A stretch of DNA of 45,142 nucleotides. Origin: a virus. The position numbers and the translations under genes were made by a program. The stretch's first letter is position 1. Every line of letters starts with the position of its first letter. Below the pieces are notes generated by a model. That model did not search any database. It was not told the DNA's origin and saw only the letters and a list, made by a program, of their open reading frames with translations. Below, in pieces: positions 1,058-28,357 of this stretch. The stretch spans positions 1 through 45,142 of the IMG/VR virus record IMGVR_UViG_3300045988_051781. The stretch is one strand, 5' to 3'.

Positions 1058-1086
1058 CTCCCCATTGTCCGGGGAGCTTTCTTATT
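1058..1086 (+). terminator. GC-rich hairpin CTCCCC-N7-GGGGAG followed by a T-rich tail
   Basis: Stem 1058..1063 pairs with 1071..1076, then CTTTCTTATT. Sits between convergent ORFs 854..1051 (+) and 1082..1411 (-). Confidence 0.4.
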
Positions 1087-1411
1087 CCACGAATTTTTGA
1101 TAGAAAATAAGTGCATCGAGAAATTCTGAATTACTCGGACATTTCGTTGTACTATAACCTAGAATCTCTTGCACATATTCCCGGTTGCTTTTCCAACATT
1201 TTTCAACGGCGCTTCGGATAGCTGCTTCGATGTTCGCCGGTGACGTTCCGTATTTTTCAGCAATAACTGGATATACGTCTTTCATCATGCGAACATTTTC
1301 ACTTTCTTCATTTTTGGCAGCCACGATTTCTACCGCATCTTGGATATAATGGTATCCTTTATACCTAGAATTTACATGGCATTTTCTCAAAATCATTACC
1401 GTTTCGTTCAT
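1082..1411 (-). CDS. Stand-alone Spo0A C-terminal (DNA-binding) domain protein with no receiver domain
   Basis: 109 aa from ATG 1411 (AGGAGG RBS). RYKGYHYIQDAV, VYPVIAEKYGTSPANIEAAIRSAVEKCW and PSNSEFLDAL parallel the remembered B. subtilis Spo0A C-domain motifs ([50 protein letters not shown]). Confidence 0.75.
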   Translation of the reverse strand: MNETVMILRKCHVNSRYKGYHYIQDAVEIVAAKNEESENVRMMKDVYPVIAEKYGTSPANIEAAIRSAVEKCWKSNREYVQEILGYSTTKCPSNSEFLDALIFYQKFVE

Positions 1412-1461
1412 AATACCCCTCCTAAGTGTGATTCTAAGATGTTTAATGATTTGTTGCACCT

Positions 1462-14233: not shown

Positions 14234-15409
14234 CTAACCTCTGGTCTTAATTCTGGCAATCGGAATTGCCTTGATTGGGAAATACTTTTCTGCGCCGGAT
14301 TTGTTGTTCTGTGCAAGCTGCCAGTTTGATCCTTTTTCAAGTTCTTCGTCTGTCGGGGAAATGATACTTCCGTCTTTAAACGAAATTCCCACCGGAGACC
14401 AGCACTTTCTCTGGCGAGAGTACAGTGTTGTTTCTCCACCGTTCTTTTCCGGGTTTCTGTCCATTTCATAAGGTACTTTAGCACCGCAATCTGTATATTC
14501 GATAGCACCAGCACCGAATACGTAAGTTGTATAGACATCACCAGCCGGAAGAAGAACAACGTAGTCTCCAGCTTTTGCTCCGGCAACATCTGTAGAAACA
14601 TCTGCTTTGTTAACCTGTCCTTTTGTAGCTCCTGTGTCAACGACTTCCAGTGCGTCTTTATCAGTCTGTTTAGCCTTTACGTACTTCGCTTTCGCTGTCT
14701 CTGTAGGCATATTGTCGTCCACAAGGACAGTTCTACCATTCAGAGTGCCGAGCGTAAGATCTCTTTCAATTCCCTGTGCATCTGTATACTTCATGTATGC
14801 GATGAGTTTCAGATTTTCGAGGTCTGTAGCGATCTTGGAATGCATAATCGCAAGACTGAATTTTGCTTTATTATCGCCAAGTGCTTTCTGAATTGCGTTG
14901 TTCAGAGTGGTTTCCTTGAATCCGTATTCTGTGGCGTTGTCCGATACATCGTAAGTATGTTTTGTGACAAAATCCACGTTTCCGGCTCCTGTCATGGAGA
15001 AAATACCTTTCAGAATTGCGAGGATCGTCTTCTGGTCTACATCATCCCAATACTCTGCGATTTCCTGTGCTGCCGGTAAGAAGTCTTCGCCTGTAATGTC
15101 GGAAGAAAAGTCTTTTTCTGTCCATCCGTTCGCACGTCCGACTACGATTCTGCTCTGTGTATAAGTTTCTCTTGATTCTGCGGTAATGTTTGTGTTACCG
15201 TCATAGTTGTTTGCTGTTCCGCCGATTCTAGCCTTAATCGGGATGGTCAGATAGTTTCCACCTGTCTGATCCGGCAGAAGCGAAGCATACTGCGGTTTTT
15301 CCACAATAGCACCTGACTTTAACAGTTCATTTCTGTTAAGGTTCTCGGTCTGATCTACATACGCACCAAAAACCTCGCCATTAAAATTTTTCTGGTCAAA
15401 TAATGCCAT
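14234..15409 (-). CDS. Major capsid protein
   Basis: 391 aa following the scaffold gene. The N-terminus MALFDQKNFNGEVFGAYVDQ is typical of this capsid family. Conserved leader upstream. Confidence 0.8.
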   Translation of the reverse strand: MALFDQKNFNGEVFGAYVDQTENLNRNELLKSGAIVEKPQYASLLPDQTGGNYLTIPIKARIGGTANNYDGNTNITAESRETYTQSRIVVGRANGWTEKDFSSDITGEDFLPAAQEIAEYWDDVDQKTILAILKGIFSMTGAGNVDFVTKHTYDVSDNATEYGFKETTLNNAIQKALGDNKAKFSLAIMHSKIATDLENLKLIAYMKYTDAQGIERDLTLGTLNGRTVLVDDNMPTETAKAKYVKAKQTDKDALEVVDTGATKGQVNKADVSTDVAGAKAGDYVVLLPAGDVYTTYVFGAGAIEYTDCGAKVPYEMDRNPEKNGGETTLYSRQRKCWSPVGISFKDGSIISPTDEELEKGSNWQLAQNNKSGAEKYFPIKAIPIARIKTRG

Positions 15410-15452: not shown

Positions 15453-16070
15453 CTACTCATTTTTGCCCTGAATGTAAGAAGAAATATCAAGGTTTGGATT
15501 TTCGTTTTTCATTCGCATAAGCTCTGTCATAGATACATGACCGCCTGTTCCTGCTCCAGCTCCGGTTTTTGGAGTTGTGAATCTGGCAGCCCCAGCTTTC
15601 GCTTTATCTGCATTTTCATCAACGAACGCTGATGCGTCTGATTCTTTCATCTGTGCGATCAGATCATTCAGTCCGAGAATCTTTCCATCATGCAATTTAA
15701 GACCGGCTGCTTTTACATCGTTCATGATCTGCTTCTTTGCAGCTTCACTAGAGAATTTAATAGTTTCAAATTCCTTGCCAAGAGCATCCGCAAAATCACG
15801 TTCGTAAAGCTTTTCCTTGTAATCTTTTTCAGCGTCTTCAGCTTTCTTCTGCCATTCTTTCAGGTCTTTCTGAATCTGTTCTGGATCGATTCCGTCAAAG
15901 CCTTTCAACGTTTCTTCCGCTGTCTCTGCTTTGGATTTCCAATTGTCCCGGTCGGCCGTTAATGTTTCGTTGTCTTTCTGCAACTTCTTAACGTCTTTCC
16001 CGTACTCTTTCATGACGTACTGGATCTGTTCATCAGTCAAACCCTGTTCTTTTAAGTCTTCTGTTTTCAT
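15453..16070 (-). CDS. Scaffolding protein (GP20-like)
   Basis: 205 aa, highly charged and helical (KEQGLTDEQIQYVMKEYGKDVKKLQ), directly upstream of the capsid gene. Confidence 0.75.
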   Translation of the reverse strand: MKTEDLKEQGLTDEQIQYVMKEYGKDVKKLQKDNETLTADRDNWKSKAETAEETLKGFDGIDPEQIQKDLKEWQKKAEDAEKDYKEKLYERDFADALGKEFETIKFSSEAAKKQIMNDVKAAGLKLHDGKILGLNDLIAQMKESDASAFVDENADKAKAGAARFTTPKTGAGAGTGGHVSMTELMRMKNENPNLDISSYIQGKNE

Positions 16071-16160
16071 TCAAAAGCTCCTTCCATTATTAGGTTATTT
16101 ATAGGTGCGTAACCAGTCACCAATGGTTTTCCGTTTTGTAGGACTCGGCTGTCCAAAAAA

Positions 16161-16228
16161 AAGAATAGGCGGAGTCGAACCGCCATTCTCCCGGATGTCC
16201 GGGTGCTTTACCGTTAAGCTATATTCTT
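16161..16228 (-). tRNA. tRNA-like element with canonical acceptor, D and T arms but only a 4-nt anticodon loop (possible pseudo-tRNA or decoy)
   Basis: Minus strand AAGAATA-TA-GCTT-AACGGTA-AAGC-A-CCCGG-ACAT-CCGGG-AGAAT-GGCGG-TTCGACT-CCGCC-TATTCTT, then a T-run. Folded by hand only. Confidence 0.5.
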
Positions 16229-16470
16229 CGCCATTTTCTTTTCTCGTAGGGGGAGGTTCAAAAAGAAAAATAGCAATCATACCAATATCACATTGAGAGG
16301 AAATGGCGTTATCAAATAACGCCAAAACTCGCCGGAACGTGCGACCGTTCCTTGATACAGTTTTCCACTAGCGAGTCTCTTAAAGAAATGAGGTGCAATG
16401 AAGAAAAAATCTTTTCCCGATTCCCTATTTTATTTTATTGCATTTTTGTACTTAAAGTAGTACTCACATT

Positions 16471-16893
16471 TTACATATCTGCGAGTTTTCTGATCTGTTT
16501 TTGAATCTCTTTTCTCTCGTCCGCGAAATCAGAATCCATGACCATAGAGGAAAGCATATCATAAACCTCTACCATCAATCTTCCAACACATTCCATCACC
16601 TTGTCACGGTGTGCCTGATCTCCGTTCTCCTTGTATGCTTCTTTTGCAAGAATGTATCTGTTGTATAATTCATCAATATTCTTGTCGTATTTTCCGTTGC
16701 TGTACTTCTTAATCAGATTTTCTGAAGCTTCAGAAAGTACTGTCGGCATTTCTGCACATTCAAGTTCATGGATATTGCAGAGCGTTCCCGTGATCTTATA
16801 GATTGCATCCAGGTTGGAGAGCGTAAGCTCACGCTTTATTGATTCTTTCTCCCTATCCAACTGGTTTTTGAGAATCTTTTTTACTTCTTCCAT
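16471..16893 (-). CDS. Hypothetical helical protein (140 aa), cargo island
   Basis: ATG at 16893 after a GAGGTGG RBS. No family recognised. Confidence 0.55.
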   Translation of the reverse strand: MEEVKKILKNQLDREKESIKRELTLSNLDAIYKITGTLCNIHELECAEMPTVLSEASENLIKKYSNGKYDKNIDELYNRYILAKEAYKENGDQAHRDKVMECVGRLMVEVYDMLSSMVMDSDFADERKEIQKQIRKLADM

Positions 16894-16894
16894 C

Positions 16895-17488
16895 TCATTC
16901 CACCTCAATTCCTTTTAACTTCTTATTGTATTTTTCTTGTATTTCCGGCTGAATTTCAGTAATGTACACCATATCGTATCCAACGGAGATCAGATCAGAA
17001 ATCATCCGTTCTACCGTTTTTAGCTCTGCACTTACATCTTCCACCAATTTTTCTACAAAAATAGCGTCTGCTACAGATCCGGTTTCTCTGAGCTTTTGTG
17101 CGTACTTCTCATACACGAATTTTGTATCGGATTCCCAGTTGTGATATTCGAGAAATCCATCTTCTACCGCTTTCTGTTTGGTGCTTTTGCCTACAGACAA
17201 CCTTTTTGCCGTGTACCATGCATCCGGTATGATATTCACTTCGCCGGAAAAATCCTCTTTTATGAGTGCATTGTGGTGGTTAATGTAATATCTGCATACC
17301 TTTCGCCGTTCTATGCTTTCTGCTAAATGCTGGTACTCATGCAGATGTTTGTATCCTCTTAGACCTAAGAAATCAAAGTAATCTGCAAATTGTCCATGCA
17401 TCATAATTGCTCCGATAAACCGGTTATTGATCTCCGAAAAAATCTCTTCTGGCGTGCTTACGTCCATTTTGCTTTTAAATTCGATCAT
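16895..17488 (-). CDS. Ferritin-like four-helix-bundle protein, metal ligands apparently degenerate
   Basis: HGQFADYFDFLGLRGYKHLHEYQHLAESIERRK and DAIFVEKLVEDVSAELKTVERMISDL follow remembered ferritin helix patterns (YFD..L.GFA.FF..Q..EE..HA.K; FLQWFV.EQ.EE). ExxH appears as ExxR. Confidence 0.55.
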   Translation of the reverse strand: MIEFKSKMDVSTPEEIFSEINNRFIGAIMMHGQFADYFDFLGLRGYKHLHEYQHLAESIERRKVCRYYINHHNALIKEDFSGEVNIIPDAWYTAKRLSVGKSTKQKAVEDGFLEYHNWESDTKFVYEKYAQKLRETGSVADAIFVEKLVEDVSAELKTVERMISDLISVGYDMVYITEIQPEIQEKYNKKLKGIEVE

Positions 17489-17502
17489 AAGCTCACCCCT
17501 TT

Positions 17503-17931
17503 CTAGGCAAGCTTTTTGATGATGATATTTGCATCTTTCACAAGAACTGAAGTCGCACTGATGTTTCCGACAGATACGGTAAAGCTACTTCCAGACGGTA
17601 CCGCAATCAGTGTTGATGCTTTCACGTTCTGGTATACTTCTGCGGTTGCAACTGTATAATCCATTTCGGTTCCTCCGATTGCTTCGCCGTTCAACTCTAT
17701 CGTAAGTGCTGTCGCTCCGGCGGCTGCCGCTGAAACATTGGCGTTAAATTCTACTTCTACCGCCATTGGAAGATTTCCGCGGTTGGTTACTTCAAAAAGT
17801 CCACTACCGTCATCATGATTGAGCCATCCACTAGTGCAAGCGCAGCGGCGGCTTTTTACTCTTGTGTTCGTAAATATAACATTCTGATTTACCGCGACTG
17901 TCTGTGCGGCTTTTGCAATTACATTTAACAT
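17503..17931 (-). CDS. BclA C-terminal / C1q-TNF-like jelly-roll domain protein
   Basis: 142 aa, beta-rich. TIELNGEAIGGT and the C-terminus VLVKDANIIIKKLA resemble the remembered BclA C-terminal domain (TIQVNGVPVPGT ... SASIIIEKVA). AGGAG RBS. Confidence 0.55.
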   Translation of the reverse strand: MLNVIAKAAQTVAVNQNVIFTNTRVKSRRCACTSGWLNHDDGSGLFEVTNRGNLPMAVEVEFNANVSAAAAGATALTIELNGEAIGGTEMDYTVATAEVYQNVKASTLIAVPSGSSFTVSVGNISATSVLVKDANIIIKKLA

Positions 17932-17945
17932 ATATATTCTCCTTT

Positions 17946-17975
17946 CAAAAAAGGGATAGACTACTGCCTACCCCT
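17946..17975 (-). terminator. Intrinsic terminator-like hairpin inside the cargo island
   Basis: Minus strand GGGGTAG-N8-CTATCCC followed by TTTTTT, just after the stop at 17989 and before the RBS of 17503..17931. Confidence 0.5.
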
Positions 17976-17988
17976 TTGATTTGCAAGA

Positions 17989-18195
17989 CTACTTTTTTGT
18001 AGACATGGATTCTTCCAACATGCTTATGATTTTGTTTTGGTTTTCAATTATTTTTAAAAAATACTTACTGTCTTGCTCATGTAAGTGTTTTTCAATGTCA
18101 GAATTACTCGCCTGTGATAGATCGCTGTTAAAATTCGCTATCTGCAAAGCAACTCCGTACACTGTCAGAAAGTCAAGCAGTGATATATCGTTCAC
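17989..18195 (-). CDS. Hypothetical 68-aa protein, cargo island
   Basis: GTG start abutting the upstream stop (TAAGTG). No family recognised. Confidence 0.45.
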   Translation of the reverse strand: MNDISLLDFLTVYGVALQIANFNSDLSQASNSDIEKHLHEQDSKYFLKIIENQNKIISMLEESMSTKK

Positions 18196-18864
18196 TTACA
18201 TCACATTCCCACTTGCACAGCAACCATTACCAAATGCGTTATACGCAAAGTACGGACTGCAAGAAATATAAGCCGGTTTTGGTGTCGGTCTCACTGCATC
18301 AATAATGTTATTGGTCTGTGATACCTGTGAGATCTGCCAATATGCTGTCTGCAAATCTCTGTCACGATCAGCGAGTTTGTCTCTCAAGTTCTGAATCGTG
18401 TTATCCTGGATTAACTGGCGTGTAGCCTGTCCATCTGCTAAGATGCTTTCTTTTATATCACAGCAGCATTGTGCCAGCTGTGCCTGCATACTCTGCGCCT
18501 GTAATGACGCATCATATCTACTCTGTAAGATCTCTTTCTGTGTGTTACAGCAACACTGCGCCTGCTGAGCCTGTAAGTTCTGCAATCCGAGCTGTGTGGT
18601 ATAGCGGTTCTCTAACACGTCTCTCTGTGTCTCGCAAGCTGTGTTAGACACGTTCTGGTTTGTGTTAAAGATATCTCTTTTCACGAATTCGTCAGAGACA
18701 AAAGCGTTCTGTGCTCCGTTGTTGTTTCCCCATCCGTTACCGCAAAACAGGAAAGCAAGAATGATGATCCAGAACCATCCTCCATCGCCCCACATTCCAT
18801 TGTCGTTGTTCCTTGTTACTGCTGCTACATCGGCAGCACTTAACGTACTCATACCATCGTTCAT
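18196..18864 (-). CDS. Membrane-anchored protein with three coiled-coil repeats, two of them headed by CCC triplets
   Basis: AGGAG RBS. N-terminal GDGGWFWIIILAFLFCGNGWG hydrophobic segment. Repeats ACETQRDVLENRY.., CCCNTQKEILQSRYD.., CCCDIKESILADGQ... C-terminal GNGCCASGNVM. Confidence 0.6.
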   Translation of the reverse strand: MNDGMSTLSAADVAAVTRNNDNGMWGDGGWFWIIILAFLFCGNGWGNNNGAQNAFVSDEFVKRDIFNTNQNVSNTACETQRDVLENRYTTQLGLQNLQAQQAQCCCNTQKEILQSRYDASLQAQSMQAQLAQCCCDIKESILADGQATRQLIQDNTIQNLRDKLADRDRDLQTAYWQISQVSQTNNIIDAVRPTPKPAYISCSPYFAYNAFGNGCCASGNVM

Positions 18865-18916
18865 GTTGGTTCTCCTTTACATTTATTTATCAAGGCGTGT
18901 GCACTCCGCCAGGATA

Positions 18917-19168
18917 TCATTTTAATTTGTTTACAATATCATTCGGGTTCATTCCGTTCTTCTGGCACATCTCCATAAATACATCTTTCGGGTTTCTTCC
19001 TTGGCACATATCAATAGCCTTTTTGATGTTCGGGTTATTCTGCGCCATGTTCTGCAACATTTCCCCAGGATTCTGTGCGCCCCTCATGAATCCCATCATT
19101 TTTTGCATCATTCCGAACGGGTTATTCCCACTTGTTCCTCCGATCATTCCCATTAACGGATTACTCAT
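18917..19168 (-). CDS. Small Met/Asn/Pro/Gly-rich protein (83 aa), cargo island
   Basis: MSNPLMGMIGGTSGNNPFGMMQKMMGFMRGAQNPGEM... ATG overlaps the upstream stop. AAGGGG RBS. Confidence 0.5.
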   Translation of the reverse strand: MSNPLMGMIGGTSGNNPFGMMQKMMGFMRGAQNPGEMLQNMAQNNPNIKKAIDMCQGRNPKDVFMEMCQKNGMNPNDIVNKLK

Positions 19169-19595
19169 GCTTCATTTCCCCTTTCTCTTCCGTCTGTGCT
19201 TTTATGTTCGACAGAAAACGCTCAAACTCTTCTCGTGTCACATACCGGTTATCCATGTCGGTAGTTACCGGCTGTGGTGCTTCATTCGGCTGGATTTCCT
19301 TAAATTCAAACGCCTTAAAGTTCACTCCGCCCATGTTGTCGACAGACTTAACATAGAATCTAGGTGCATTGTTATCCATCATCCACGATGTTCCACCCGG
19401 CTGTACAATCTGGTTTCTAGCACCGTCCACACCGTTCACCTGTATCCAATTTACGTTTGGCTGTTGTGTCTGCATCGGCTGCTTGTACTGGTTCTGTATC
19501 TGTGACAGCTGGTCTATTCTCTGTTGCAATACCTGTTGGTCTTGCATATATGGACTTTGCATTTGTGGCATATAATATGGACTGTATCCGTTCAT
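19161..19595 (-). CDS. Protein with a Q-rich N-terminus and a globular C-terminal domain (144 aa), cargo island
   Basis: ATG 19595 after AGGAGG. MNGYSPYYMPQMQSPYMQDQQVLQQRIDQLSQIQNQYKQPMQTQQ, then WIQVNGVDGARNQIVQPGGTSWMMDNNAPRFYVKSVD. Confidence 0.55.
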   Translation of the reverse strand: MNGYSPYYMPQMQSPYMQDQQVLQQRIDQLSQIQNQYKQPMQTQQPNVNWIQVNGVDGARNQIVQPGGTSWMMDNNAPRFYVKSVDNMGGVNFKAFEFKEIQPNEAPQPVTTDMDNRYVTREEFERFLSNIKAQTEEKGEMKHE

Positions 19596-19690
19596 CAAAA
19601 AACACCTCCTTGTTTTCTATACCTTAATTTTACGCATAAAAAAAGAACTCTAACAGTTCGTTAAAGTCCTTAGAAAGAATCACAAAAGTA

Positions 19691-19906
19691 TCAGCACACT
19701 TTTATGATCTTTGTATTTATTCGTCTGCTTATTCTCTTTACAGTGGATAAGCTCACGTTCATCTTTTCTGCGCACAATTCCAGAGGTACGTCCATGCTCC
19801 GCAGATCAAAGAGTTCCATTTCTGTGGGCGTGAAATTACATTCTTTTCTTAGGTATTCGATTTCTTTACGTGTAAAAGAACATATTTTCATGATACCATA
19901 AATCAC
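19691..19906 (-). CDS. Small sigma-70 region-4 / GerE-LuxR-like HTH protein (about 66-71 aa)
   Basis: TPTEMELFDLRSMDVPLELCAEKMNVSLSTVKRISRRINTKI fits the region-4/LuxR HTH pattern. Start ambiguous (GTG 19906 or ATG 19891). Confidence 0.55.
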   Translation of the reverse strand: MIYGIMKICSFTRKEIEYLRKECNFTPTEMELFDLRSMDVPLELCAEKMNVSLSTVKRISRRINTKIIKVC

Positions 19907-20253
19907 GCTTTCTTGTCTGTCATTGCATTTACCAATTCTTCCCGTGTTTTTTTTAAACCCTCAATGTTATTCCCGGTTATCTTGTTTTCGATAAGATTGA
20001 ACATACTTCGCATAAGCAAATTCATATCTTCCTTAGTGTTCCTGATAGATTTATAGTCACTATCGAGCTTTTTGTTTATGTCCGATATGCTTTCCTCGAT
20101 ATTCCCAATCCTGCCCTCGATATTTTCTATCTTCTTATCTTGCTGTTTTCTTGGACTGTCCATGTGCTTTTTCCACGTGGAAATCACTGCCACAGCTCCA
20201 CCAATAACCGTGATCGCATTGCAGATCACCAAAAATTGTGTTAACTGTTCCAT
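19903..20253 (-). CDS. N-terminal TM + coiled-coil protein (116 aa)
   Basis: TAAATG coupling to the MuF-like gene and an AGGAG RBS. FLVICNAITVIGGAVAVISTW hydrophobic helix followed by heptad-like repeats. Confidence 0.55.
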   Translation of the reverse strand: MEQLTQFLVICNAITVIGGAVAVISTWKKHMDSPRKQQDKKIENIEGRIGNIEESISDINKKLDSDYKSIRNTKEDMNLLMRSMFNLIENKITGNNIEGLKKTREELVNAMTDKKA

Positions 20254-21480
20254 TTATTCTCCTTTAGCTACCTGATACCGCTTTGCTCCTTGCATTGCCT
20301 TTACTGACTCCGATCTATGCCAATTTGCCACCTTTAAGCGTTCTGCATACTCTTTCAGATCATTCGCTTTGCAAAATTTACTGTATTCTTTCTTCTGCCT
20401 TGCCAGTGTATCCGCTTTTCTGTCGTATTTGTTCTGCAACTCAAATTTGAGCTTTTCGTCTCGGCAACTGTCTATAGCTGTCTGTATGTTTTGCAGATCT
20501 CCCTTGCTATTCCTGATCCGGCGTTCCAGTATCCTCTGTCTTTTCTGCAAGGATTCCGCTTTGTAGTTGTCGGCTTTCTTTATGCTGTCTATATCGAATG
20601 GATTGTTGATTCCGTCACCAGATCCGAAAGAGTGTCGGCAATTCCATCCACACAATCCATCGCCCGTTCCGTATCCTGTCGTTTCCCGGAAGTCCGGGTA
20701 TCTTTTGTCTTTCCCTGTTCTGGAATAGAAACGGCCTTGCCACCACAAATGGTTGGTTGGATTCATTCCGCCATCTCCGGTTCTGGCTCCCAAATGAGCA
20801 GATACAAGGATTGTATCCCATTCCATTTCTTCCATTCTCTTGATAGAAATGTCTGCCGCCGCCTGTCCAATTCCTGTGCGGACGATCATCATTGTGGCTG
20901 CTTCTATGCTCAGTTTTCTTTGTGTCGGATACGTTACCTTAACGCCATTCTCTGTAATCTTGTTAAGCACATCTCTTACCGCTTCGGTATACGATACTGC
21001 ACCGGATACAACATTTCTATATGCGTTATCCATTTCGTTAATAAAAATGCGCTGTGATTCTTCGGCTGTCGTTCTTGTAAAGTTACGCCACATTTTTTCC
21101 GTTGCTGCATAATCTCTTTCAAGAATTCGGATCAGTGCTGGTGACTGCATAAGTGGCGGTGGATTAAGTCCGACTGCTTCATATACCGCATGATCCCACT
21201 TTAGAGCTTCGATGCCGGCATCTTGGAAAGCTGCTTTTATTTCCGGCAACTGCTTTTTTGTCTTGTCTGCAATCTCTTTCTGAATGTCCCCTAACAACTC
21301 TCCGGCATCTTGTAAAACCATAATCTGCCACTTATCCGTAGCGGTGAGAAGATAATCTTCTCCTCTTCCAATACGTGACATCATTCTGGCTATAATCTTA
21401 TCCATAATGTTCCGGTGCATCTGTGACGCGATTTTCTCCGCTCCGTCCGTAGCATCTTGCAAATACTCAGGTGTTAGCAT
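20254..21480 (-). CDS. Head morphogenesis / minor capsid protein (MuF / SPP1 gp7-like)
   Basis: 408 aa directly after the portal gene. Contains the GWNCRHS motif typical of MuF-like domains. Confidence 0.75.
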   Translation of the reverse strand: MLTPEYLQDATDGAEKIASQMHRNIMDKIIARMMSRIGRGEDYLLTATDKWQIMVLQDAGELLGDIQKEIADKTKKQLPEIKAAFQDAGIEALKWDHAVYEAVGLNPPPLMQSPALIRILERDYAATEKMWRNFTRTTAEESQRIFINEMDNAYRNVVSGAVSYTEAVRDVLNKITENGVKVTYPTQRKLSIEAATMMIVRTGIGQAAADISIKRMEEMEWDTILVSAHLGARTGDGGMNPTNHLWWQGRFYSRTGKDKRYPDFRETTGYGTGDGLCGWNCRHSFGSGDGINNPFDIDSIKKADNYKAESLQKRQRILERRIRNSKGDLQNIQTAIDSCRDEKLKFELQNKYDRKADTLARQKKEYSKFCKANDLKEYAERLKVANWHRSESVKAMQGAKRYQVAKGE

Positions 21481-21569: not shown

Positions 21570-23003
21570 CTATTCGTTTTTGAACAGATCCGGTTCTTCC
21601 GGCTCGTTCTCTTTTTTCGCTTCTTCGATCATCTGTCTCGCTTTATCCTCGCTCATGCCCTCAAATTTAGCATAATACATCCATGCCGGAACATCTCCTT
21701 GGATTCTGTATTTCCACCAGTTAGCCGCATCCTCTTGGTAGTTATATGTAATGTCGCCAAAGTTAAACACCATTGATTCTTCCAGATTTTCCCACAGCTC
21801 CGGCGGCGTATCACTGTACAGATCTGCCATGACATTGCAGCCATATAACAGCTGCTTGATACATTCTTCCAGAGTGTCGCGGATGTTCTTAATTGTTCGG
21901 ATTGTTTCCTGATCGTCCGCTTCTACCTGTGTGGCGGTCATCATGCCGGTTTTTTCATCCAACTGGAAAAATCCCTGAGAGAATCCACATTTTGTTGAAA
22001 TCATGGCAAGAATCGAATTGATATCTTTGATTCTCTGTTCTGTTAATAAGGTGGCAACGTGTTCATGAATCATGTTTTCATCGTTCACACCTACGCCCAT
22101 CTCCACGCCTTTTAGTGTTCGCGGGAGCTTAACCTTGTTGTCTTTTGCATACCGTATAGCACTGTAAGGTAGATAAGTAACGTGCTTGCTGTCCTCTGTC
22201 TCTGTCCCTTTTCTACTCCATGCAATATCCAGATCTTTCAGCTCCTTGATGCAGTTGCACCAGATTGGAACGCCTAATGCACTATCACGGTCGATCCTGT
22301 TCGGTGACGGATTCTTAAAGAGCGCAAACAGCGGTTTTTCTACATTGGCAATATATACATCCGGCTCAATCTCTTCCCATTCCGCCACTTCTGTAAGGCC
22401 GCATGGTCTGCCGATTCCAGTTGCTACGCCAGTGCTTCCAATTCTTTTTTTGTATGCTACGTTCGTGATCCGGTACAATTCGCCCTCGTACCTCTGCCAC
22501 TCATAGCGCGTGTATCTATATCCGTTTCGGTCTAAGATTGTACGGAACACACAACCTTTTATGTCGCCGTTGCTGTCTGTTGCTGTCGGCGCAAAGTTGC
22601 CAGCTTCTACATAATCAATATTCTCACCGTTTGGCTTGAACATGATACCGGCATTTCCTAATCCGTCGGATACCTTGTCACTGATTACTTTCAGTACGTA
22701 GTCAGCTTGTTTTTTTAGTAATTCCGCTCTACCCTGTCCGTCAATCTGAATATCCAAATCAAGCGTCACAAGTCCGGCGGTCACATCATCTATGTATCCG
22801 GCAAAGTTGATCGTGTCCACTTCGTCTTCCTGGTCTTTCCACGGAGGATTTCCGCTTGTAATGTTGTAAAACGTCGCTATTGCTTTTTCCATTGCGGACG
22901 ACAGCGACACGTCCGTTTTAAAAATGTCTTTTGCATCTTTTCTAAGCAATCTGTCAATCACCGTCCTCGCCCATGCTATAAATCCCATGCTTAATATCTC
23001 CAC
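21570..23003 (-). CDS. Portal protein (SPP1 gp6-like)
   Basis: 477 aa, overlaps the terL stop. Assigned from position and size, with a conserved-looking portal core. Confidence 0.85.
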   Translation of the reverse strand: MEILSMGFIAWARTVIDRLLRKDAKDIFKTDVSLSSAMEKAIATFYNITSGNPPWKDQEDEVDTINFAGYIDDVTAGLVTLDLDIQIDGQGRAELLKKQADYVLKVISDKVSDGLGNAGIMFKPNGENIDYVEAGNFAPTATDSNGDIKGCVFRTILDRNGYRYTRYEWQRYEGELYRITNVAYKKRIGSTGVATGIGRPCGLTEVAEWEEIEPDVYIANVEKPLFALFKNPSPNRIDRDSALGVPIWCNCIKELKDLDIAWSRKGTETEDSKHVTYLPYSAIRYAKDNKVKLPRTLKGVEMGVGVNDENMIHEHVATLLTEQRIKDINSILAMISTKCGFSQGFFQLDEKTGMMTATQVEADDQETIRTIKNIRDTLEECIKQLLYGCNVMADLYSDTPPELWENLEESMVFNFGDITYNYQEDAANWWKYRIQGDVPAWMYYAKFEGMSEDKARQMIEEAKKENEPEEPDLFKNE

Positions 23004-24316
23004 CTTAATCTACGTCTTAAAAATGTGTAGCAGTAATATCTTGTATCATCCATACTGTGGTCATTTTCTTTGATAACGACATCATCGCCCTTTTCTTCAT
23101 CCCACACGTACAGACCATACTCTTTTATGTTGTCCTCGCAGTCCTCGTGTACGCTTATCATGTCCTTGTTCAGCATCGTAGTTACCACCCTGATACCGTC
23201 TAGGACATCATTATTCGCGCCCATTACACTGTATTCATTATATTTCTTTATGACCTCGATAAATGAAGCGGCAGACGGATCGACAATAATACATTCGACA
23301 CGTCTGTTCCCGATTAACTTTTTCAGCATCTTGTAATATTCTTCATCATCCACACGCTTTTTTTTCTTTCGGCTATCATAATAGATCTCCGCTTCTCTCT
23401 GTGAATGCCATCCATCGAACGCCCACAGTCCGGCAGAAAAAGGATTCACTGTTCCGTAGTCAACAGATACGACATAGGTCAGCGCGCCGGTCATGTGCTC
23501 TTTTTTCACATGTCTCTCTTCGGAAAACATAGAATACACAAGTCCTTCAGCAACGCACCACAATCCTAGTACGTATCTTTTAAAGAAAACGCCATCATAC
23601 ATGGTGTAATATCTTTTCTTGTTCTCTTCCGCTAAAGACAAGTTATCATCCATAATAAAATGCAGATATATGATATTTTTTTCTTTGCACTTGTCAATCC
23701 AATTGATTTTGAACCAATGTCTCGGACTGTCCGGGTTGCAGTTGAACCAGAATTTGGATCCTGTCACAGAACAACGTCCAGTCGCCTGATTCACAAATGA
23801 TTCCGGCATCAGTGCCACTTCGTCAAAAAACATTCCGGCGAGCGTGATTCCCTGTATGAGATCCTGTGATCGTTCGTCTTTTCCTCCGAATATGTAAAAA
23901 TAATTTACAATTGCCCCTTTGCTGACAATGAGCAGATTGTCTGATCTATGATCCGCTATTGAATATCCACGGCTTAAAAGCATTAACTTTAGCCAGAATA
24001 ATACATTTCTTCTGAATGCTCCGATTGTTTTCCCGGCCATACCAAAATTTTGACGATTGAATGTATTCATCGCCCACAGCACGTAAGAAAGAGACATGCA
24101 CAACGTTTTGCCACTTCGGATTGATCCATCTGCTATAATGCCGTCCTTGTCCTTAACTGGACTATTCGGACACCACCAGGTCAGGACTTGCTTCTGCTTA
24201 ACAGAGAACGGTTTGAAAGCGAACCCTTGCTTCTTAACCTTTTCTTTCATGGCAGACGCACGTTTCATAATGCCCTTGCGTACATTCTCTATACGCTGAT
24301 CTATGCTATTCGTCAT
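22991..24316 (-). CDS. terL: Terminase large subunit (PBSX-type)
   Basis: 441 aa. Walker A-like GSIRSGKT, FFDEV Walker B-like motif, C-terminal nuclease-like region VDYGTVNPF...DTRY. Overlaps terS. Confidence 0.9.
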   Translation of the reverse strand: MTNSIDQRIENVRKGIMKRASAMKEKVKKQGFAFKPFSVKQKQVLTWWCPNSPVKDKDGIIADGSIRSGKTLCMSLSYVLWAMNTFNRQNFGMAGKTIGAFRRNVLFWLKLMLLSRGYSIADHRSDNLLIVSKGAIVNYFYIFGGKDERSQDLIQGITLAGMFFDEVALMPESFVNQATGRCSVTGSKFWFNCNPDSPRHWFKINWIDKCKEKNIIYLHFIMDDNLSLAEENKKRYYTMYDGVFFKRYVLGLWCVAEGLVYSMFSEERHVKKEHMTGALTYVVSVDYGTVNPFSAGLWAFDGWHSQREAEIYYDSRKKKKRVDDEEYYKMLKKLIGNRRVECIIVDPSAASFIEVIKKYNEYSVMGANNDVLDGIRVVTTMLNKDMISVHEDCEDNIKEYGLYVWDEEKGDDVVIKENDHSMDDTRYYCYTFLRRRLRWRY

Positions 24317-24767
24317 CCGTCCACACCTCGCAAGCTGTAGCGTTCAGGGCATCCATGAAGTTATCATGCACCTCTTCCGCCGTGTTATCCTTGTATGCTG
24401 CTTCTAGCTTTGTAATCTCAATATCCATCCGGCGGTTTTCCATGTTGCGCTTCAGGATCTCTTTCGCTGCATTGGTACGTTCAGATAGTGGTGCATCAAG
24501 ATCGAACTGGTCTTTTACCTCTCCACGCATTACAGATGTCAGGAAACGCATAACTTCGGCTACGTCTGCGATTCTTGCATCCTCGATTTGTTTCTGCCGT
24601 TTTTGTATATACTCCAAAATTTGAGGTTTCTTGAGGTTATCAGCTCCTGTCCTATATGCCGTTCTTTCACTGTATCCTGCTTCTTTTGCCGCTTGTGTTG
24701 CATTTCCGCATACCAAATACTTATCACAGAACGTTTTCTGCTTCGGTGTAAGCTTATCATTTTCCAC
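24306..24767 (-). CDS. terS: Terminase small subunit (Terminase_2-like)
   Basis: LTPKQKTFCDKYLVCGNATQAAKEAGYSERTAYRTGADNLKKPQI matches the remembered terS HTH N-terminus. GTG start. Confidence 0.8.
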   Translation of the reverse strand: MENDKLTPKQKTFCDKYLVCGNATQAAKEAGYSERTAYRTGADNLKKPQILEYIQKRQKQIEDARIADVAEVMRFLTSVMRGEVKDQFDLDAPLSERTNAAKEILKRNMENRRMDIEITKLEAAYKDNTAEEVHDNFMDALNATACEVWTDDE

Positions 24768-25928: not shown

Positions 25929-26564
25929 TTACCTCTTTTTCCTTTCTGTCAGTTCTTCTCCGAACGACTTAATCTTTACAATGTTCCCTGCACATTCTTC
26001 AGGAACCTGTCCGTAAAACAGCACTGTCTCAGGTTCCAATCTTTTCATCATCTCATTATATCCGTCCATGAACAGTGCTTTCCGCTCCTTGCTGTTCATT
26101 ACTCCAACACTGGATACCGCTACTACACTTCCTACCGGCTCACCGTCAAAACACCAATCAAACGATTCTCTGTCGCTCCAACTGATTGTAGGTATCACAT
26201 CTATACCGTACATCTGCATATAAGCACCTAACCAATGCTTGCGAAAATGGTTGTAAATCTGCAAAGCTTTCGGGAAATCCGTGTAAGTGCTAAAATCTGG
26301 CGACATGACACAATCAAATTTGCTCAACACTGGAATGTATTTATCTGGATGCGTCCACAGTCTTAGAAATTGGTAATCATCCAGAAAGAAGTGTATCCCT
26401 TTGCCCTCCGGCTTCTTGCAAGTATTTGCATAGTTAAAACCTATAAATTTACACTTTTCGTATGATGTAGGTTCTATCTTTGGTATGTCATACTGACCAA
26501 CGCCATCAAAAATATACTTCTGTTGGTTTTCGTAGTTCTTCATTTCGCGGTACAAAAAATACAC
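25929..26564 (-). CDS. DUF4417-like protein
   Basis: GIHFFLDDYQF..LW..P..Y...L..F..V.SPDFS and GIDVIPTISWSD resemble DUF4417 from memory. Start uncertain (GTG 26564, TTG 26555 or ATG 26543). Confidence 0.55.
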   Translation of the reverse strand: MYFLYREMKNYENQQKYIFDGVGQYDIPKIEPTSYEKCKFIGFNYANTCKKPEGKGIHFFLDDYQFLRLWTHPDKYIPVLSKFDCVMSPDFSTYTDFPKALQIYNHFRKHWLGAYMQMYGIDVIPTISWSDRESFDWCFDGEPVGSVVAVSSVGVMNSKERKALFMDGYNEMMKRLEPETVLFYGQVPEECAGNIVKIKSFGEELTERKKR

Positions 26565-28332: not shown

Positions 28333-28357
28333 GTCAACTCTTCCTTTCCATTTAAAA

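What the first reader, a model, noticed from the sequence alone, without database searches (positions are those of the whole stretch)
16471..20253. A 3.8-kb non-structural cargo island splits the head-morphogenesis module between the MuF-like gene and the scaffold gene
In the terS-terL-portal-MuF-scaffold-capsid arrangement, MuF and scaffold are normally adjacent. Here nine co-oriented ORFs intervene, and none resembles a known morphogenesis family:
- TM + coiled-coil protein (19903..20253)
- 71-aa sigma-r4/GerE-like HTH (19691..19906)
- Q-rich protein (19161..19595)
- Met/Asn/Pro-rich 83-aa protein (18917..19168)
- CCC-repeat membrane protein (18196..18864)
- 68-aa ORF (17989..18195)
- BclA-C/C1q-like protein (17503..17931)
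- ferritin-like protein (16895..17488)
- 140-aa helical protein (16471..16893)
A tRNA-like element follows.

The island has its own punctuation: a weak hairpin plus T7 at 19638..19659 after the HTH gene, and a hairpin plus T6 at 17946..17975.

The mix of a GerE-sized regulator, an exosporium-type jelly roll, and Cys-rich and Q-rich proteins suggests a sporulation- or spore-surface-directed module. So does the hydrophobic GG-W N-terminus, which recalls tiny sporulation TM proteins, and the Spo0A_C gene at 1082..1411. This is an inference. Alternatives are capsid decoration proteins or internal/ejected proteins.
Basis: partly seen in the sequence, partly recalled or inferred. Interest (0 to 1): 0.8.

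Follow-up and report, generated by a model that had tools for sequence, protein, structure and literature searches.

The report
Mobile accessory gene cassette splitting head module
A 3.7-kb block of eight co-oriented genes sits between the head-assembly genes of a Coprococcus comes phage; it is a widespread, self-contained accessory cassette of gut Clostridia phages that the capsid does not need, and its function is still unknown.

Summary
Nine real, co-oriented genes under purifying selection lie between the MuF-like gene and the scaffold gene. None matches a head-assembly family, and both hairpins exist.

What it is:
- **Dispensable for the capsid.** Relatives with the same portal, MuF, scaffold and capsid type lack ORFs 2-9 and keep only the first ORF.
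- **Conserved as a block.** About 90 other phage contigs carry the nine-ORF block in the same order, beside at least three different capsid types.
- **Found in other places.** Its core also occurs after lysis genes, after tail-fibre genes, in early regions, and as a small islet on the opposite strand.
- **Own control elements.** It carries a small HTH regulator, a terminator followed by a conserved promoter-like motif before the Q-rich gene, and a conserved terminator-like hairpin after the 68-aa gene.
- **Variable slot.** In relatives, the gap after the HTH gene holds anti-defence genes (Tad2-like, Acb2/Tad1-like).

Folds: the 197-aa protein is a true ferritin homologue with a remodelled metal site. 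The 142-aa protein is a BclA_C/ExsF-type jelly roll, from a low-confidence model.

The cargo reading is supported. The sporulation reading remains a weak inference. The block is not unique, and its first ORF belongs to the backbone.

The parts
20254..21480 (-). MuF-like minor head protein (upstream flank, not part of the island)
   Evidence: Pfam Phage_min_cap2 E 4e-72; PHROG 581 minor head protein E 2e-80
19903..20253 (-). i1: 116-aa protein with an N-terminal hydrophobic segment and a coiled coil. It is a backbone gene, separable from the indel.
   Evidence: Present at 67-69% identity in the island-less relatives L016/L017. Only sub-threshold XhlA (E 2e-3) and PHROG 1009 of unknown function.
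19691..19906 (-). i2: small stand-alone HTH of LuxR/sigma-70 region-4 type, the candidate regulator of the cassette. The likely true start is the ATG at about 19891.
   Evidence: Pfam Sigma70_r4 E 3.6e-3. PHROG 1190 sigma factor E 8e-6. Profile against PDB: NarL C-terminal domain E 5e-3, SigW and SigH weak. It travels with the cassette in non-head contexts: L106 E 3e-9, L002 E 5e-9.
19636..19671 (-). T1: terminator-like hairpin (19671..19643) with a U7 tract
   Evidence: It lies directly upstream of i3 in nearly all relatives, downstream of any inserted cargo, and its stem sequence differs in distant groups.
19614..19636 (-). Conserved non-coding motif TGCGTAAAATTAAGGTATAGAAA (-10-like TAAAAT), the candidate promoter or operator of i3-i6
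   Evidence: Found within 90 nt upstream of i3 in 55 of 89 loci, which is 57 of 79 motif hits in 2.9 Mb. Also upstream of the i3 homologue in C. perfringens phage HMD-PC1 and Dulem virus 35. Only one exact copy in the window.
19161..19595 (-). i3: 144-aa protein with a Gln/Met/Pro-rich N-terminus and a conserved central domain. Member of the core triad.
   Evidence: PHROG 21718, unknown function, E 5e-20. Alignment. No PDB relative.
18917..19168 (-). i4: 83-aa Met/Asn/Pro-rich protein with repeated NPxxxM motifs. It is immediately upstream of i5 in every locus where it was identified.
   Evidence: Alignment. HMM hits next to i5 in L001, L002, L104, L105, L107 and L108. No family hit.
18196..18864 (-). 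i5: 222-aa signature protein with a Gly/Trp-flanked hydrophobic membrane segment, a Gln-rich coiled coil with two CCC motifs, and a C-terminal RPxPxPAY..CSPY..GCC tail
   Evidence: 1729 homologues; 1366 clusters at 50% identity, the 150 listed being 62-299 aa; no gathering-level Pfam hit in 40 diverse members. PHROG 16490 E 2e-12.
17989..18195 (-). i6: 68-aa protein. In CS266P4, Dulem 36 and HMD-PC1 it lies just upstream of the ferritin-like gene.
   Evidence: In phage CS266P4 only the i6 and i8 homologues are present, and they are adjacent. HMM hits in L001, L002, L104, L106 and L108.
17946..17975 (-). T2: 12-bp hairpin plus U6, abutting the ribosome-binding site of i7. It acts as an intra-cassette terminator or attenuator.
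   Evidence: -20.4 kcal/mol, z -4.4. The structure is kept with different stem sequences in many relatives, including Dulem virus 39.
17503..17931 (-). i7: 142-aa stand-alone BclA_C/ExsF-type (TNF/C1q-like) jelly roll with a conserved N-terminal RRCxC
   Evidence: Pfam BclA_C E 1.4e-4, below the cut-off. Some homologues carry PF18573 and the name 'BclA C-terminal domain-containing protein'. AF2 pLDDT 62.7. Foldseek: F-BclA, BclA and ExsFA/BxpB at TM 0.60-0.71. BFVD: stand-alone phage 'BclA protein' at TM about 0.8.
16895..17488 (-). i8: 197-aa ferritin homologue with a remodelled di-metal site
   Evidence: Profile against PDB ferritins E 2.9e-5. AF2 pLDDT 92.4: four long helices with shorter C-terminal helices. 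Foldseek to prokaryotic ferritins TMt 0.80-0.87. Invariant E57, E60, E119, E155, D151 and H31 map onto ferroxidase-centre positions, while the first glutamate is lost (F24).
16471..16893 (-). i9: 140-aa helical protein, seen only in the MuF-scaffold version of the cassette
   Evidence: PHROG 28802, unknown function, E 5e-6. No PDB relative. Homologue in Dulem 35 E 1.5e-10.
16304..16324 (-). Hairpin after i9, weakly terminator-like
16160..16228 (-). Degenerate tRNA-like element with a 4-nt anticodon loop, in the seam upstream of the scaffold gene
   Evidence: Rfam tRNA 57 bits; ARAGORN 'tRNA-???'. Many relatives carry true or degenerate tRNAs at the same place.
16091..16154 (-). GP20-b RNA motif immediately upstream of the scaffold gene
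   Evidence: Rfam RF03003, 40.2 bits against a gathering score of 36.2. Also in the island-less L017.
15453..16070 (-). Scaffold protein (downstream flank)
   Evidence: Pfam Phage_scaffold E 7.5e-26

Best explanation
The block i2-i9 (window 19906..16471) is a self-contained accessory operon of the 'moron' type. It moves horizontally among phages of gut Clostridia. Here it is parked at a natural seam of the head module, between the terS-terL-portal-MuF-i1 genes and the scaffold-capsid genes that are led by structured RNA. It takes no part in head assembly.

**Shown**
- It is present or absent between relatives that otherwise share the same head genes.
- It is independent of capsid type.
- Its core (i3-i4-i5, often with i2, i6, i7 and a ferritin- or rubrerythrin-like gene) recurs in four other genome contexts.
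- The hairpins T1 and T2 and the upstream motif are conserved.
- i8 has a ferritin fold, and i7 has a BclA_C-type jelly roll.
- In relatives the slot between i2 and T1 holds anti-defence genes.

**Inferred mechanism**
1. The small HTH i2 controls the conserved promoter-like motif downstream of T1. This motif has a -10-like box but no clear -35.
2. i3-i6 therefore form their own transcription unit, ending at T2. i7-i9 are made only by read-through.
3. The triad places a Cys-rich coiled-coil protein (i5) in the host membrane. The Met/Asn/Pro-rich i4 may act as its chaperone.
4. The ferritin homologue i8, with i6, binds or oxidises metal.
5. The net effect is a change in the envelope and the metal or redox state of the infected or lysogenic anaerobe. 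That is host conversion or takeover, not capsid building.
For: **Dispensable for the head**
- L016/L017 (portal 69%, MuF 69%, scaffold 65.5%, capsid 81-82% identity) have only i1 between MuF and scaffold. L011-L015 and L018 have nothing there.
- The indel boundaries are 19919 and 16183.

**Independent of the capsid**
- The same nine-gene order sits beside capsids with 76-99%, 27-29% or no detectable identity.
- Against L019, island dN is 0.17-0.33, MuF 0.47, portal 0.60 and capsid 0.70.
- i5-i6 were exchanged recently: dS is about 0.3 where neighbouring genes are saturated.

**Other genome contexts**
- Early region of C. perfringens phage HMD-PC1, and next to an integrase in Dulem 39.
- After RBP or tail genes in Dulem 36 and CS266P4.
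- After holin and endolysin in L106, together with i2.
- An oppositely oriented islet in L107.

**Own cis-elements**
- T2 is conserved with varied stem sequences.
- T1 and the motif always lie directly before i3.

**Accessory neighbourhood**
- Relatives carry Tad2-like, Acb2/Tad1-hairpin, DUF1653, DUF6275, DUF4406 and DUF7336 genes in the i2-i3 slot.

**Folds**
- i8; i7; i2.

**Host range**
- INPHARED (50,697 phage records) gave hits only in Clostridium-host and gut or faecal metagenome phages.
Against: - There are no expression data. The promoter has only a -10-like box and no convincing -35, and the sigma-70 scan did not flag it.
- Composition matches the rest of the phage (GC 0.39-0.43), unlike classical morons.
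- The MuF-scaffold position is by far the most common. It persists to deep divergence (Dulem 35, where i7 is 34% identical). That would also fit a late-expressed or virion-linked role.
- i7 and most other island proteins show no obvious N-terminal secretion signal by eye (no predictor was run), and the i7 fold usually works outside cells. Without export, it could reach the outside only on a virion, on a spore, or after lysis.
- The roles proposed for i3, i4, i5, i6 and i9 rest on sequence features alone.
Confidence: 0.55

Rival explanations
1. Virion-associated accessory proteins. The block would encode non-essential head-linked proteins made with the late genes. Examples would be a jelly-roll decoration or fibre-tip protein (i7), or internal or ejected proteins packaged with MuF. 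This resembles the multi-gene Dar system of phage P1 or the T4 internal proteins.
For: - The block lies inside the late structural operon, directly after MuF, in about 90 loci and in the deeply diverged Dulem 35.
- In Dulem 36 and CS266P4 it follows tail-fibre genes.
- The i7 fold is the distal domain of many phage tail-fibre and collagen-repeat proteins.
- i7 shows no obvious secretion signal by eye (no predictor run).
- i7-i9 have no room for a promoter of their own after T2.
Against: - The cassette is independent of capsid type and evolves two to four times more slowly than portal and capsid.
- It also sits in early or replication regions and as an opposite-strand islet.
- It carries its own HTH regulator and internal terminators.
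- i5 has a membrane-anchor-like segment.
- No PHROG structural category was hit.
Confidence: 0.2
2. Sporulation- or spore-surface-directed module. The proteins would be made in the mother cell of a sporulating lysogen or infected cell. They would join or alter the coat or exosporium: an ExsF/BclA-like jelly roll, Cys-rich and Gln-rich cross-linkable proteins, a ferritin-like coat enzyme, and a GerE-like regulator.
For: - The best solved-structure matches of i7 are exosporium proteins: F-BclA, BclA and ExsFA/BxpB, at TM 0.60-0.71.
- i2 is a GerE-sized LuxR-type HTH.
- Conserved Cys clusters occur in i5 and i7, and the N-terminus of i3 is Gln-rich.
- Coat proteins also lack signal peptides (established knowledge).
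- Hosts are endospore-forming Clostridia, and C. comes forms spores (PMC4890681, PMC7801112).
- The phage also carries a stand-alone Spo0A_C gene.
Against: - Pfam (E up to 1) and NCBIfam (E up to 0.1) list no coat, exosporium or small sporulation-membrane family (CotJ, Coat_F, GerQ, YjcZ-type), apart from BclA_C below its cut-off.
- The jelly-roll fold is equally common in phage fibres, and i7 is an optional member of the cassette.
- i8 is closest to true ferritins, not Mn-catalase-type coat proteins.
- By eye, the conserved upstream motif does not fit the sigma-E, -K, -F or -G consensus as I recall them. This was not tested formally.
- No homologue was found in the many Bacillus phages of INPHARED.
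Confidence: 0.13
3. Counter-defence or defence system. The conserved cassette would itself be a multi-protein device against host immunity or against superinfecting phages, in line with the anti-defence genes next to it.
For: - The slot between i2 and i3 in relatives holds Tad2-like and Acb2/Tad1-like genes.
- The cassette moves between accessory loci at module junctions.
- It is highly conserved relative to the structural genes, as expected for proteins that face conserved host targets.
Against: - No PADLOC hit for i2-i9.
- No enzymatic or nucleotide-binding domain typical of such systems was found.
- A ferritin fold and a jelly roll are not known parts of any described anti-defence system, to my knowledge.
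- Adjacency to a hot spot is only guilt by association.
Confidence: 0.1

Closest known systems
Morons (autonomous accessory transcription units between structural genes of lambdoid phages such as HK97/HK022; named from my own knowledge of the literature)
   Same: It is present or absent between otherwise homologous neighbours. It is inserted at a gene-module seam of the late region. It is bracketed by terminator-like hairpins and preceded by a promoter-like motif. It is not needed for virion assembly.
   Different: It has eight genes rather than one or two, and it carries its own HTH regulator. Its base composition does not differ from the host phage. It is conserved as a block across very many phages and found in several different positions. 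The promoter is not demonstrated.
Prokaryotic ferritin (Ftn; e.g. Thermotoga maritima 1z4a/1vlg, Archaeoglobus fulgidus 1s3q)
   Same: i8 shares the four-helix bundle, with shorter C-terminal helices beyond it (TMt 0.80-0.87; profile E 2.9e-5). It has acidic residues at four ferroxidase-centre positions: E57, E60, E119 and E155.
   Different: The first glutamate ligand is lost (F24). The His ligand is replaced by Glu (it is His in the HMD-PC1 homologue), the Gln by Val, and the Tyr by an invariant His. The B-C loop is longer. i6, a 68-aa gene, lies just upstream in several phages. Cage assembly and iron binding were not tested.
BclA C-terminal domain and ExsFA/BxpB (Bacillus exosporium TNF/C1q-like jelly rolls; Pfam PF18573)
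   Same: i7 has the same fold class and size. These are its best structural matches. Like ExsFA/BxpB, it stands alone without collagen repeats.
   Different: The Pfam score is below the cut-off, identity is 11-20%, and the model has low confidence (pLDDT 63). i7 has a conserved N-terminal RRCxC. It is encoded by phages of Clostridia, and nothing shows that it goes to spores.
P1 Dar antirestriction system and T4 internal proteins (non-essential multi-gene sets linked to head genes; from my own knowledge)
   Same: A non-essential multi-gene set embedded among head-morphogenesis genes, next to a protein (MuF family) that is itself packaged.
   Different: No homology was found. The cassette includes a membrane-anchored protein and a transcription regulator, it occurs outside head modules in other phages, and no packaging evidence exists.
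GP20-b and other structured RNAs upstream of phage scaffold (GP20) genes (Rfam RF03003; PMC10690425)
   Same: The seam where the island sits contains the GP20-b motif directly upstream of the scaffold gene, as the family is described.
   Different: Here a degenerate tRNA-like element precedes it. In relatives, true tRNAs or the RAGATH-21 motif precede it. The one source read for GP20-b (PMC10690425) does not describe that arrangement.

Membership tests
Head-morphogenesis proteins (scaffold, protease, decoration, head completion) | Sequence or profile membership in a known head-assembly family | tested here: not met
   Pfam, PHROGs and NCBIfam gave no such hit for any of the nine ORFs. PHROG hits were to 'unknown function' families. 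PDB profile searches of i2, i3, i4, i5, i7, i8 and i9 gave no structural-protein hit with E below 0.5.
Head-morphogenesis proteins (scaffold, protease, decoration, head completion) | Kept wherever the same capsid system is kept (co-inheritance with portal, scaffold and capsid) | tested here: not met
   L016/L017 have the same capsid type (capsid 81-82% identical) without i2-i9. The island occurs beside at least three capsid types.
Moron / autonomous accessory unit | Present or absent between otherwise homologous flanking genes | tested here: met
   Clean indel against L017: 3.7 kb against 290 bp
Moron / autonomous accessory unit | Own terminator | tested here: met
   T1 and T2 are hairpins with U tracts. 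Their structure is conserved with varied stem sequences. Termination activity itself was not measured.
Moron / autonomous accessory unit | Own promoter | tested here: inconclusive
   A conserved motif with a -10-like TAAAAT lies upstream of i3. It has no convincing -35, and the consensus scan did not call it.
Moron / autonomous accessory unit | Base composition different from the surrounding phage genes | tested here: not met
   GC is 0.39-0.43 across the island against 0.43-0.45 in the flanks
Ferritin (i8) | Ferritin fold (four-helix bundle; a short fifth helix in true ferritins) | tested here: met
   AF2 pLDDT 92.4. Foldseek TMt 0.80-0.87 to ferritins. Profile E 2.9e-5. The model has two short helices (173-178, 180-196) after the bundle; whether one equals the ferritin E helix was not checked.
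Ferritin (i8) | Complete ferroxidase centre (Glu, Glu-x-x-His, Glu, Gln/Glu, Tyr) | tested here: not met
   Mapping gives Glu to F24, Glu to E57, His to E60, Glu to E119, Gln to V152, Glu to E155 and Tyr to H31. Four acidic positions are invariant, but the canonical set is incomplete.
Ferritin (i8) | 24-mer cage and iron mineralisation | not testable with these tools
   Needs biochemistry or multimer modelling
BclA_C / TNF-C1q-like jelly roll (i7) | Pfam PF18573 at or above the gathering score | tested here: not met
   The window protein scores 22.2 bits against a cut-off of 38. Several 73-79% identical homologues carry precomputed PF18573.
BclA_C / TNF-C1q-like jelly roll (i7) | Jelly-roll fold matching BclA/ExsF | tested here: met
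   Foldseek E 8e-7 to 2.5e-5, TM 0.60-0.71, but the model pLDDT is only 62.7
BclA_C / TNF-C1q-like jelly roll (i7) | Collagen-like stalk N-terminal of the domain (BclA proper) | tested here: not met
   The protein is 142 aa with no Gly-X-Y repeats
Spore coat / exosporium module | Homology of members to known coat or exosporium families (CotJ, Coat_F, GerQ, ExsY/CotY, CdeC, YjcZ-type tiny TM) | tested here: not met
   Apart from sub-threshold BclA_C, Pfam lists none of these at E up to 1 and NCBIfam none at E up to 0.1. HMMER's filters drop most matches above about 0.1.
Spore coat / exosporium module | Expression from sporulation sigma-factor promoters and localisation to spores | not testable with these tools
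   Needs transcriptomics or proteomics of a sporulating lysogen. The motif did not fit the sporulation consensus as I recall it, by eye only.
LuxR/GerE-type or sigma-70 region-4 HTH (i2) | Significant profile match to the HTH family | tested here: inconclusive
   Pfam Sigma70_r4 E 3.6e-3, below the cut-off. PHROG 1190 E 8e-6. PDB NarL C-terminal domain E 5e-3.
Known defence systems (PADLOC) | Match to a PADLOC model | tested here: not met
   No hit for i2-i9. Only coiled-coil noise for i1.
tRNA (element at 16160-16228) | Cloverleaf with a 7-nt anticodon loop | tested here: not met
   Rfam scores 57 bits, but the loop has 4 nt and ARAGORN cannot assign an anticodon

The most novel reading that the evidence does not exclude
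The cassette could be a new, self-regulated phage system specific to anaerobic spore-forming Clostridia. It would build a disulfide-cross-linkable protein assembly with metal bound. The parts would be a membrane-anchored CCC coiled coil, a BclA/ExsF-like jelly roll, and a ferritin homologue with its small partner. The target would be the forespore or spore surface, or the envelope of the infected cell. In other words, phage-encoded structural remodelling of the spore or cell surface, under a GerE-like regulator carried by the cassette.
Probability: 0.12. Interest if true: 0.85.

Novelty: new variant of a known kind. Interest (0 to 1): 0.5.

Why it matters
Eight conserved, co-inherited genes of unknown function recur in a very large number of human and animal gut phages. 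The jelly-roll protein has more than 7400 homologues, and the CCC protein has 1366 clusters at 50% identity. This is a sizeable, well-delimited piece of gut viral 'dark matter'.

It is now tractable. The boundaries, core genes, satellite genes, candidate regulator and cis-elements are defined. Natural island-less relatives exist. The host, Coprococcus comes, can be cultured and forms spores.

A phage-borne ferritin homologue, coupled to a Cys-rich membrane protein in strict anaerobes, points to phage manipulation of metal or redox physiology or of the cell or spore surface. Neither is documented for gut Lachnospiraceae phages, to my knowledge.

The adjacent variable slot with Tad2-like and Acb2/Tad1-like genes marks a new place to mine for counter-defence genes. 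The seam itself, with tRNA-like elements, GP20-b and RAGATH-21 before the scaffold gene, bears on how scaffold and capsid expression is separated from upstream genes.

Tried and rejected
- **Close annotated phages.** megablast of the head region against INPHARED found nothing.
- **PADLOC and NCBIfam** on all nine ORFs gave nothing for i2-i9.
- **PDB profile searches** for i3, i4, i5, i7 and i9 gave no meaningful hit.
- **Domain fusions for i5.** The 150 best of 1366 representative clusters are all 62-299 aa, and 40 diverse members gave no gathering-level Pfam hit.
- **Repeated phage promoter.** The motif before i3 has only one exact copy in the window; near-matches are at chance level.
- **Essential head genes.** Rejected, because island-less relatives share the same head genes.
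- **Chance ORFs.** Rejected, because all nine ORFs are conserved as ORFs and dN/dS is 0.01-0.14 wherever it could be estimated.
- **T1 as the terminator of the HTH gene.** Rejected, because in relatives it follows the inserted cargo and always precedes i3.
- **A promoter between T2 and i7.** Rejected for lack of space.
- **Resemblances recalled from memory, not tested.** These include i3 with GerQ, i4 with STI1/SGTA-type NNP repeats or Cu-binding Met motifs, i5 with ExsY/CotY or spanins, and Ena-type N-terminal Cys connectors for i7. No reference sequences were on hand, and Pfam gave no support.
- **Literature searches** for phage BclA-like decoration proteins and phage ferritins found nothing on point.

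Full report
**1. The observation**

The window is a complete temperate phage genome of about 45 kb, with almost all genes on the minus strand. Close relatives are prophages of Coprococcus comes.

The late region reads, in order:
- terS 24306-24767
- terL 22991-24316
- portal 21570-23003
- MuF-like gene 20254-21480 (Pfam Phage_min_cap2, E 4e-72)
- nine co-oriented ORFs, 20253..16471
- a 400-bp non-coding stretch
- scaffold 15453-16070 (Phage_scaffold, E 7.5e-26)
- major capsid protein 14234-15409

Each is kept as an ORF in relatives at 48-100% amino-acid identity. Against L010, dN/dS is 0.01-0.14 for the seven ORFs with unsaturated dS. For i8 and i9 dS is saturated, so they rest on ORF conservation. 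They are real genes.

None matches a head-assembly family in Pfam, PHROGs, NCBIfam or PADLOC.

Both hairpins are real. One is a 12-bp stem plus U6 at 17975..17946 (-20.4 kcal/mol, z -4.4). The other is a stem plus U7 at 19671..19643.

I number the ORFs i1 (19903-20253) to i9 (16471-16893).

**2. A true insertion that head assembly does not need**

A scan of IMG/VR with the MuF protein returned 14 loci.
- Six carry all nine ORFs.
- Two (L016/L017) share the window's head genes: portal 69%, MuF 69%, scaffold 65.5%, capsid 81-82% identity. Between MuF and scaffold they have only i1 and about 0.4 kb of non-coding DNA.
- Six (L011-L015, L018; MuF 70%) have nothing but about 0.37 kb there.

DNA homology with L017 runs to window 19919 and resumes at 16183. 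That is 3.7 kb here against 290 bp there.

So i2-i9 are the indel, and i1 separates from it. A phage with the same capsid system assembles without the block.

**3. The block is not a one-off**

The CCC protein i5 has 1729 homologues in the 5.8-billion-protein set, and 1366 clusters at 50% identity in the representative library. The 150 listed representatives are 62-299 aa, and 40 diverse members gave no gathering-level Pfam hit. The jelly-roll protein i7 has more than 7400 homologues.

In about 90 contigs fetched through i5, the order MuF-i1-i2-[gap]-i3-i4-i5-i6-i7-i8-i9-scaffold is constant. The scaffold and capsid beside it fall into at least three unrelated types: 76-99%, 27-29%, or no detectable identity.

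The island proteins are more conserved than the structural genes around them. In L019, island dN is 0.17-0.33, against MuF 0.47, portal 0.60 and capsid 0.70. The i5-i6 segment was exchanged recently between lineages, with dS about 0.3 where neighbours are saturated.

Proteins that co-evolve with a capsid would not behave this way.

**4. The same genes occur in other genome contexts**

Family HMMs built from the loci find the cassette in these places:

| Context | Phage or locus | Members found |
|---|---|---|
| Early or recombination region | C. perfringens phage HMD-PC1 (L001) | i3, i4, i5, i6, i8 |
| Next to an integrase | Dulem virus 39 (L002) | i2, i4, i5, i6, i7 |
| After receptor-binding or tail genes | Dulem virus 36 (L104) | i3, i4, i5, i6, i8 |
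| After tail genes | Clostridium phage CS266P4 (L103) | i6 + i8 only |
| Directly after holin and endolysin | L106 | i2, i3, i5, i6, i7 |
| Plus-strand islet among minus-strand genes | L107 | i4, i5 and two flanking unassigned ORFs |
| Short contig | L108 | i4, i5, i7, i6, then a rubrerythrin-like gene |
| MuF-scaffold position | lemur-gut Dulem virus 35 (L105) | i2, i3, i4, i5, i7, i9 |

From this the parts sort as follows:
- The core is the triad i3-i4-i5.
- i6 lies just upstream of the ferritin-like gene in CS266P4, Dulem 36 and HMD-PC1.
- i7 is optional.
- i2 travels with the cassette.
- i9 is seen only in the head context.

All INPHARED hits are to Clostridium-host phages or gut and faecal metagenome phages.

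**5. The cassette has its own punctuation, conserved across contexts**

*T2.* The hairpin after i6 is present in many relatives with different stem sequences, including Dulem 39. It abuts the ribosome-binding site of i7. That leaves no room for a promoter, so i7-i9 depend on read-through.

In relatives that carry extra genes between i2 and i3, it follows those genes.

*The motif.* Immediately downstream of T1 is a conserved motif, TGCGTAAAAT-N5-GTATAGA, with a -10-like TAAAAT. It also lies upstream of the i3 homologue in HMD-PC1 (ATGTAAAATTAAAGTATAAAGAACAGGAGG) and Dulem 35, although the HMD-PC1 i3 protein is only 23% identical. A loose pattern finds it within 90 nt of i3 in 55 of 89 loci. Those are 57 of 79 hits in 2.9 Mb, though many of the loci are close relatives. 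It occurs once in the window.

I read the motif as the promoter or operator of an i3-i6 unit. The evidence is limited: there is no clear -35, and the sigma-70 scan did not call it.

**6. The gap between i2 and T1 is a cargo slot**

The distance from the i2 stop to the i3 start is 93 bp in the window, and ranges from overlap to 3.8 kb in relatives. Relatives carry Tad2-like (PF11195), Acb2/Tad1-hairpin (PF24729), DUF1653, DUF6275, DUF4406 and DUF7336 genes there. The neighbourhood is therefore an accessory and counter-defence hot spot.

**7. What the proteins are**

- **i8** is a ferritin homologue.
  - Its profile matches PDB ferritins at E 2.9e-5.
  - The AF2 model has pLDDT 92.4, with four long helices and shorter C-terminal ones.
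  - Foldseek gives TMt 0.80-0.87 to prokaryotic ferritins.
  - Mapping the Thermotoga ferritin alignment gives: first Glu to F24 (lost), Glu to E57, His to E60 (His in the HMD-PC1 homologue), Glu to E119, Gln to V152, Glu to E155, Tyr to H31.
  - E57, E60, E119, E155, D151 and H31 are invariant in the family. The metal site is remodelled but probably still works.
- **i7** is a BclA_C-type jelly roll.
  - It scores below the Pfam BclA_C cut-off (E 1.4e-4), but some homologues carry that domain.
  - Its model has low confidence (pLDDT 62.7).
  - The best PDB matches are F-BclA, BclA and ExsFA/BxpB (E 8e-7 to 2.5e-5, TM 0.60-0.71).
  - In the viral structure library the best matches are stand-alone 130-142-aa gut-phage proteins (TM about 0.8). 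The tips of collagen-repeat and tail-fibre proteins follow.
- **i2** is a 66-71-aa HTH of LuxR/sigma-r4 type. All its matches are weak but consistent.
- **i5** has a Gly/Trp-flanked hydrophobic segment, a Gln-rich coiled coil with CCC motifs, and a conserved RPxPxPAY..CSPY tail.
- **i4** is a run of NPxxxM repeats.
- **i3** has a Gln/Met/Pro-rich N-terminus and a conserved central domain.
- **i6 and i9** have no informative match.

**8. Why the island sits here**

The region between i9 and the scaffold gene is a seam that island-less relatives share. In the window it holds a degenerate tRNA-like element (16160-16228; 4-nt anticodon loop) followed by the GP20-b motif (16091-16154). Relatives have real tRNAs (Ile, Lys, Tyr, Met, Ser, Thr, Ala), other degenerate tRNAs, RAGATH-21, and GP20-b at the same place. 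Structured RNAs upstream of scaffold (GP20) genes are a described phenomenon (PMC10690425).

The head module is thus already divided at this point, so an insertion is tolerated.

**9. Interpretation**

*Best reading, about 0.55.* This is a mobile, self-regulated accessory operon of the moron type, and it is not structural. I infer, but have not shown, the following chain. i2 controls the motif. i3-i6 form one unit, with i7-i9 made by read-through. i5 is placed in the membrane with the help of i4. i8 with i6 handles metal. The result is a change in the envelope, metal or redox state of the infected or lysogenic anaerobe.

*Rivals.*
- **Virion-associated accessory proteins, 0.2.** The very frequent late-operon position, the fibre-tip fold of i7 and the lack of an obvious secretion signal favour this. 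Independence from capsid type, the early-region copies, the regulator and the membrane segment count against it.
The i7 fold, the Cys- and Gln-rich proteins, the GerE-like regulator, spore-forming hosts (PMC4890681, PMC7801112) and the Spo0A_C gene at 1082-1459 favour it. Against it:
  - no other homology to coat families;
  - the optional status of i7;
  - the absence of the cassette from Bacillus phages.
- **A counter-defence or defence system, 0.1.** This rests on guilt by association only, and there was no PADLOC hit.

**10. Verdict**

The 'cargo island' reading is supported and sharpened. The sporulation reading is neither excluded nor shown.

The kind, an accessory island at a module seam, is known. 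This multi-gene cassette, with its own regulator, its ferritin homologue and its undescribed core families, is a new variant. It is common enough in gut phages to deserve experiments.

Noticed in passing
window 16091-16228 (-); L017 9521-9645; L003 5745-6084; L075 9530-9875; L074 9699-10105: The non-coding seam before the scaffold gene is a hot spot for tRNAs and structured RNAs. The window has a degenerate tRNA-like element (4-nt anticodon loop) followed by GP20-b. Relatives have true tRNAs (Ile, Lys, Tyr, Met, Ser, Thr, Ala), a 59-nt tRNA-like stub, RAGATH-21 and GP20-b at the same position. The tRNA-like element may be an RNase P/Z processing site that releases the scaffold-capsid mRNA.
   Followed up: partly
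between i2 and i3: window 19596-19690; e.g. L039 4681-5325, L042 5182-5868, L025 1424-1822, L031 4313-5110: In relatives this gap, from overlap up to 3.8 kb, carries Tad2-like, Acb2/Tad1-hairpin, DUF1653, DUF6275, DUF4406 and DUF7336 genes. It is a previously unlisted place to look for counter-defence genes in gut siphophages.
   Followed up: partly
window 1082-1459 (-): A stand-alone Spo0A C-terminal (DNA-binding) domain gene without a receiver domain (Pfam E 4.6e-25). It lies between the tail genes and the holin, a typical moron position. It could interfere with the host's Spo0A regulon.
   Followed up: partly
window 481-774 (-), 44279-45118 (-), 42378-43112 (+), 26986-28386 (-): The window looks like a circularly permuted whole temperate phage. 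The holin is at the low end and the CW_7+LysM endolysin part at the high end of the same strand. There is also a CI-like S24 repressor and a large serine recombinase.
   Followed up: partly
window 17989-18864 against L027 7001-7873: There is recent recombination inside the island. i5 and i6 are 95-97% identical to the L027-type phages (dS about 0.3), while the adjacent i3, i4, i7, i8 and i9 are saturated at synonymous sites.
   Followed up: partly
L017 2099-2168 (-): A type II hammerhead ribozyme (Rfam 59 bits) lies in the island-less relative, upstream of its packaging genes.
   Followed up: no
window 25929-26564 (-) and L002 9334-9990: A DUF4417 gene lies a few genes from a recombinase or integrase gene, both in this phage (serine recombinase) and in Dulem virus 39. 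In Dulem 39 the cassette sits between the two.
   Followed up: no
L010 9225-9505: L010 has about 280 bp of extra sequence between MuF and i1 that the window lacks. It also combines a 91% identical MuF with a different scaffold (43%) and an undetectable capsid. This marks a mosaic joint at the seam.
   Followed up: no
L108 3174-3446: In one distant version of the cassette, a gene with a weak Rubrerythrin Pfam hit lies downstream of the i4-i5-i7-i6 genes, after a DUF7841 gene. This hints that a ferritin-superfamily partner is a recurrent feature.
   Followed up: no
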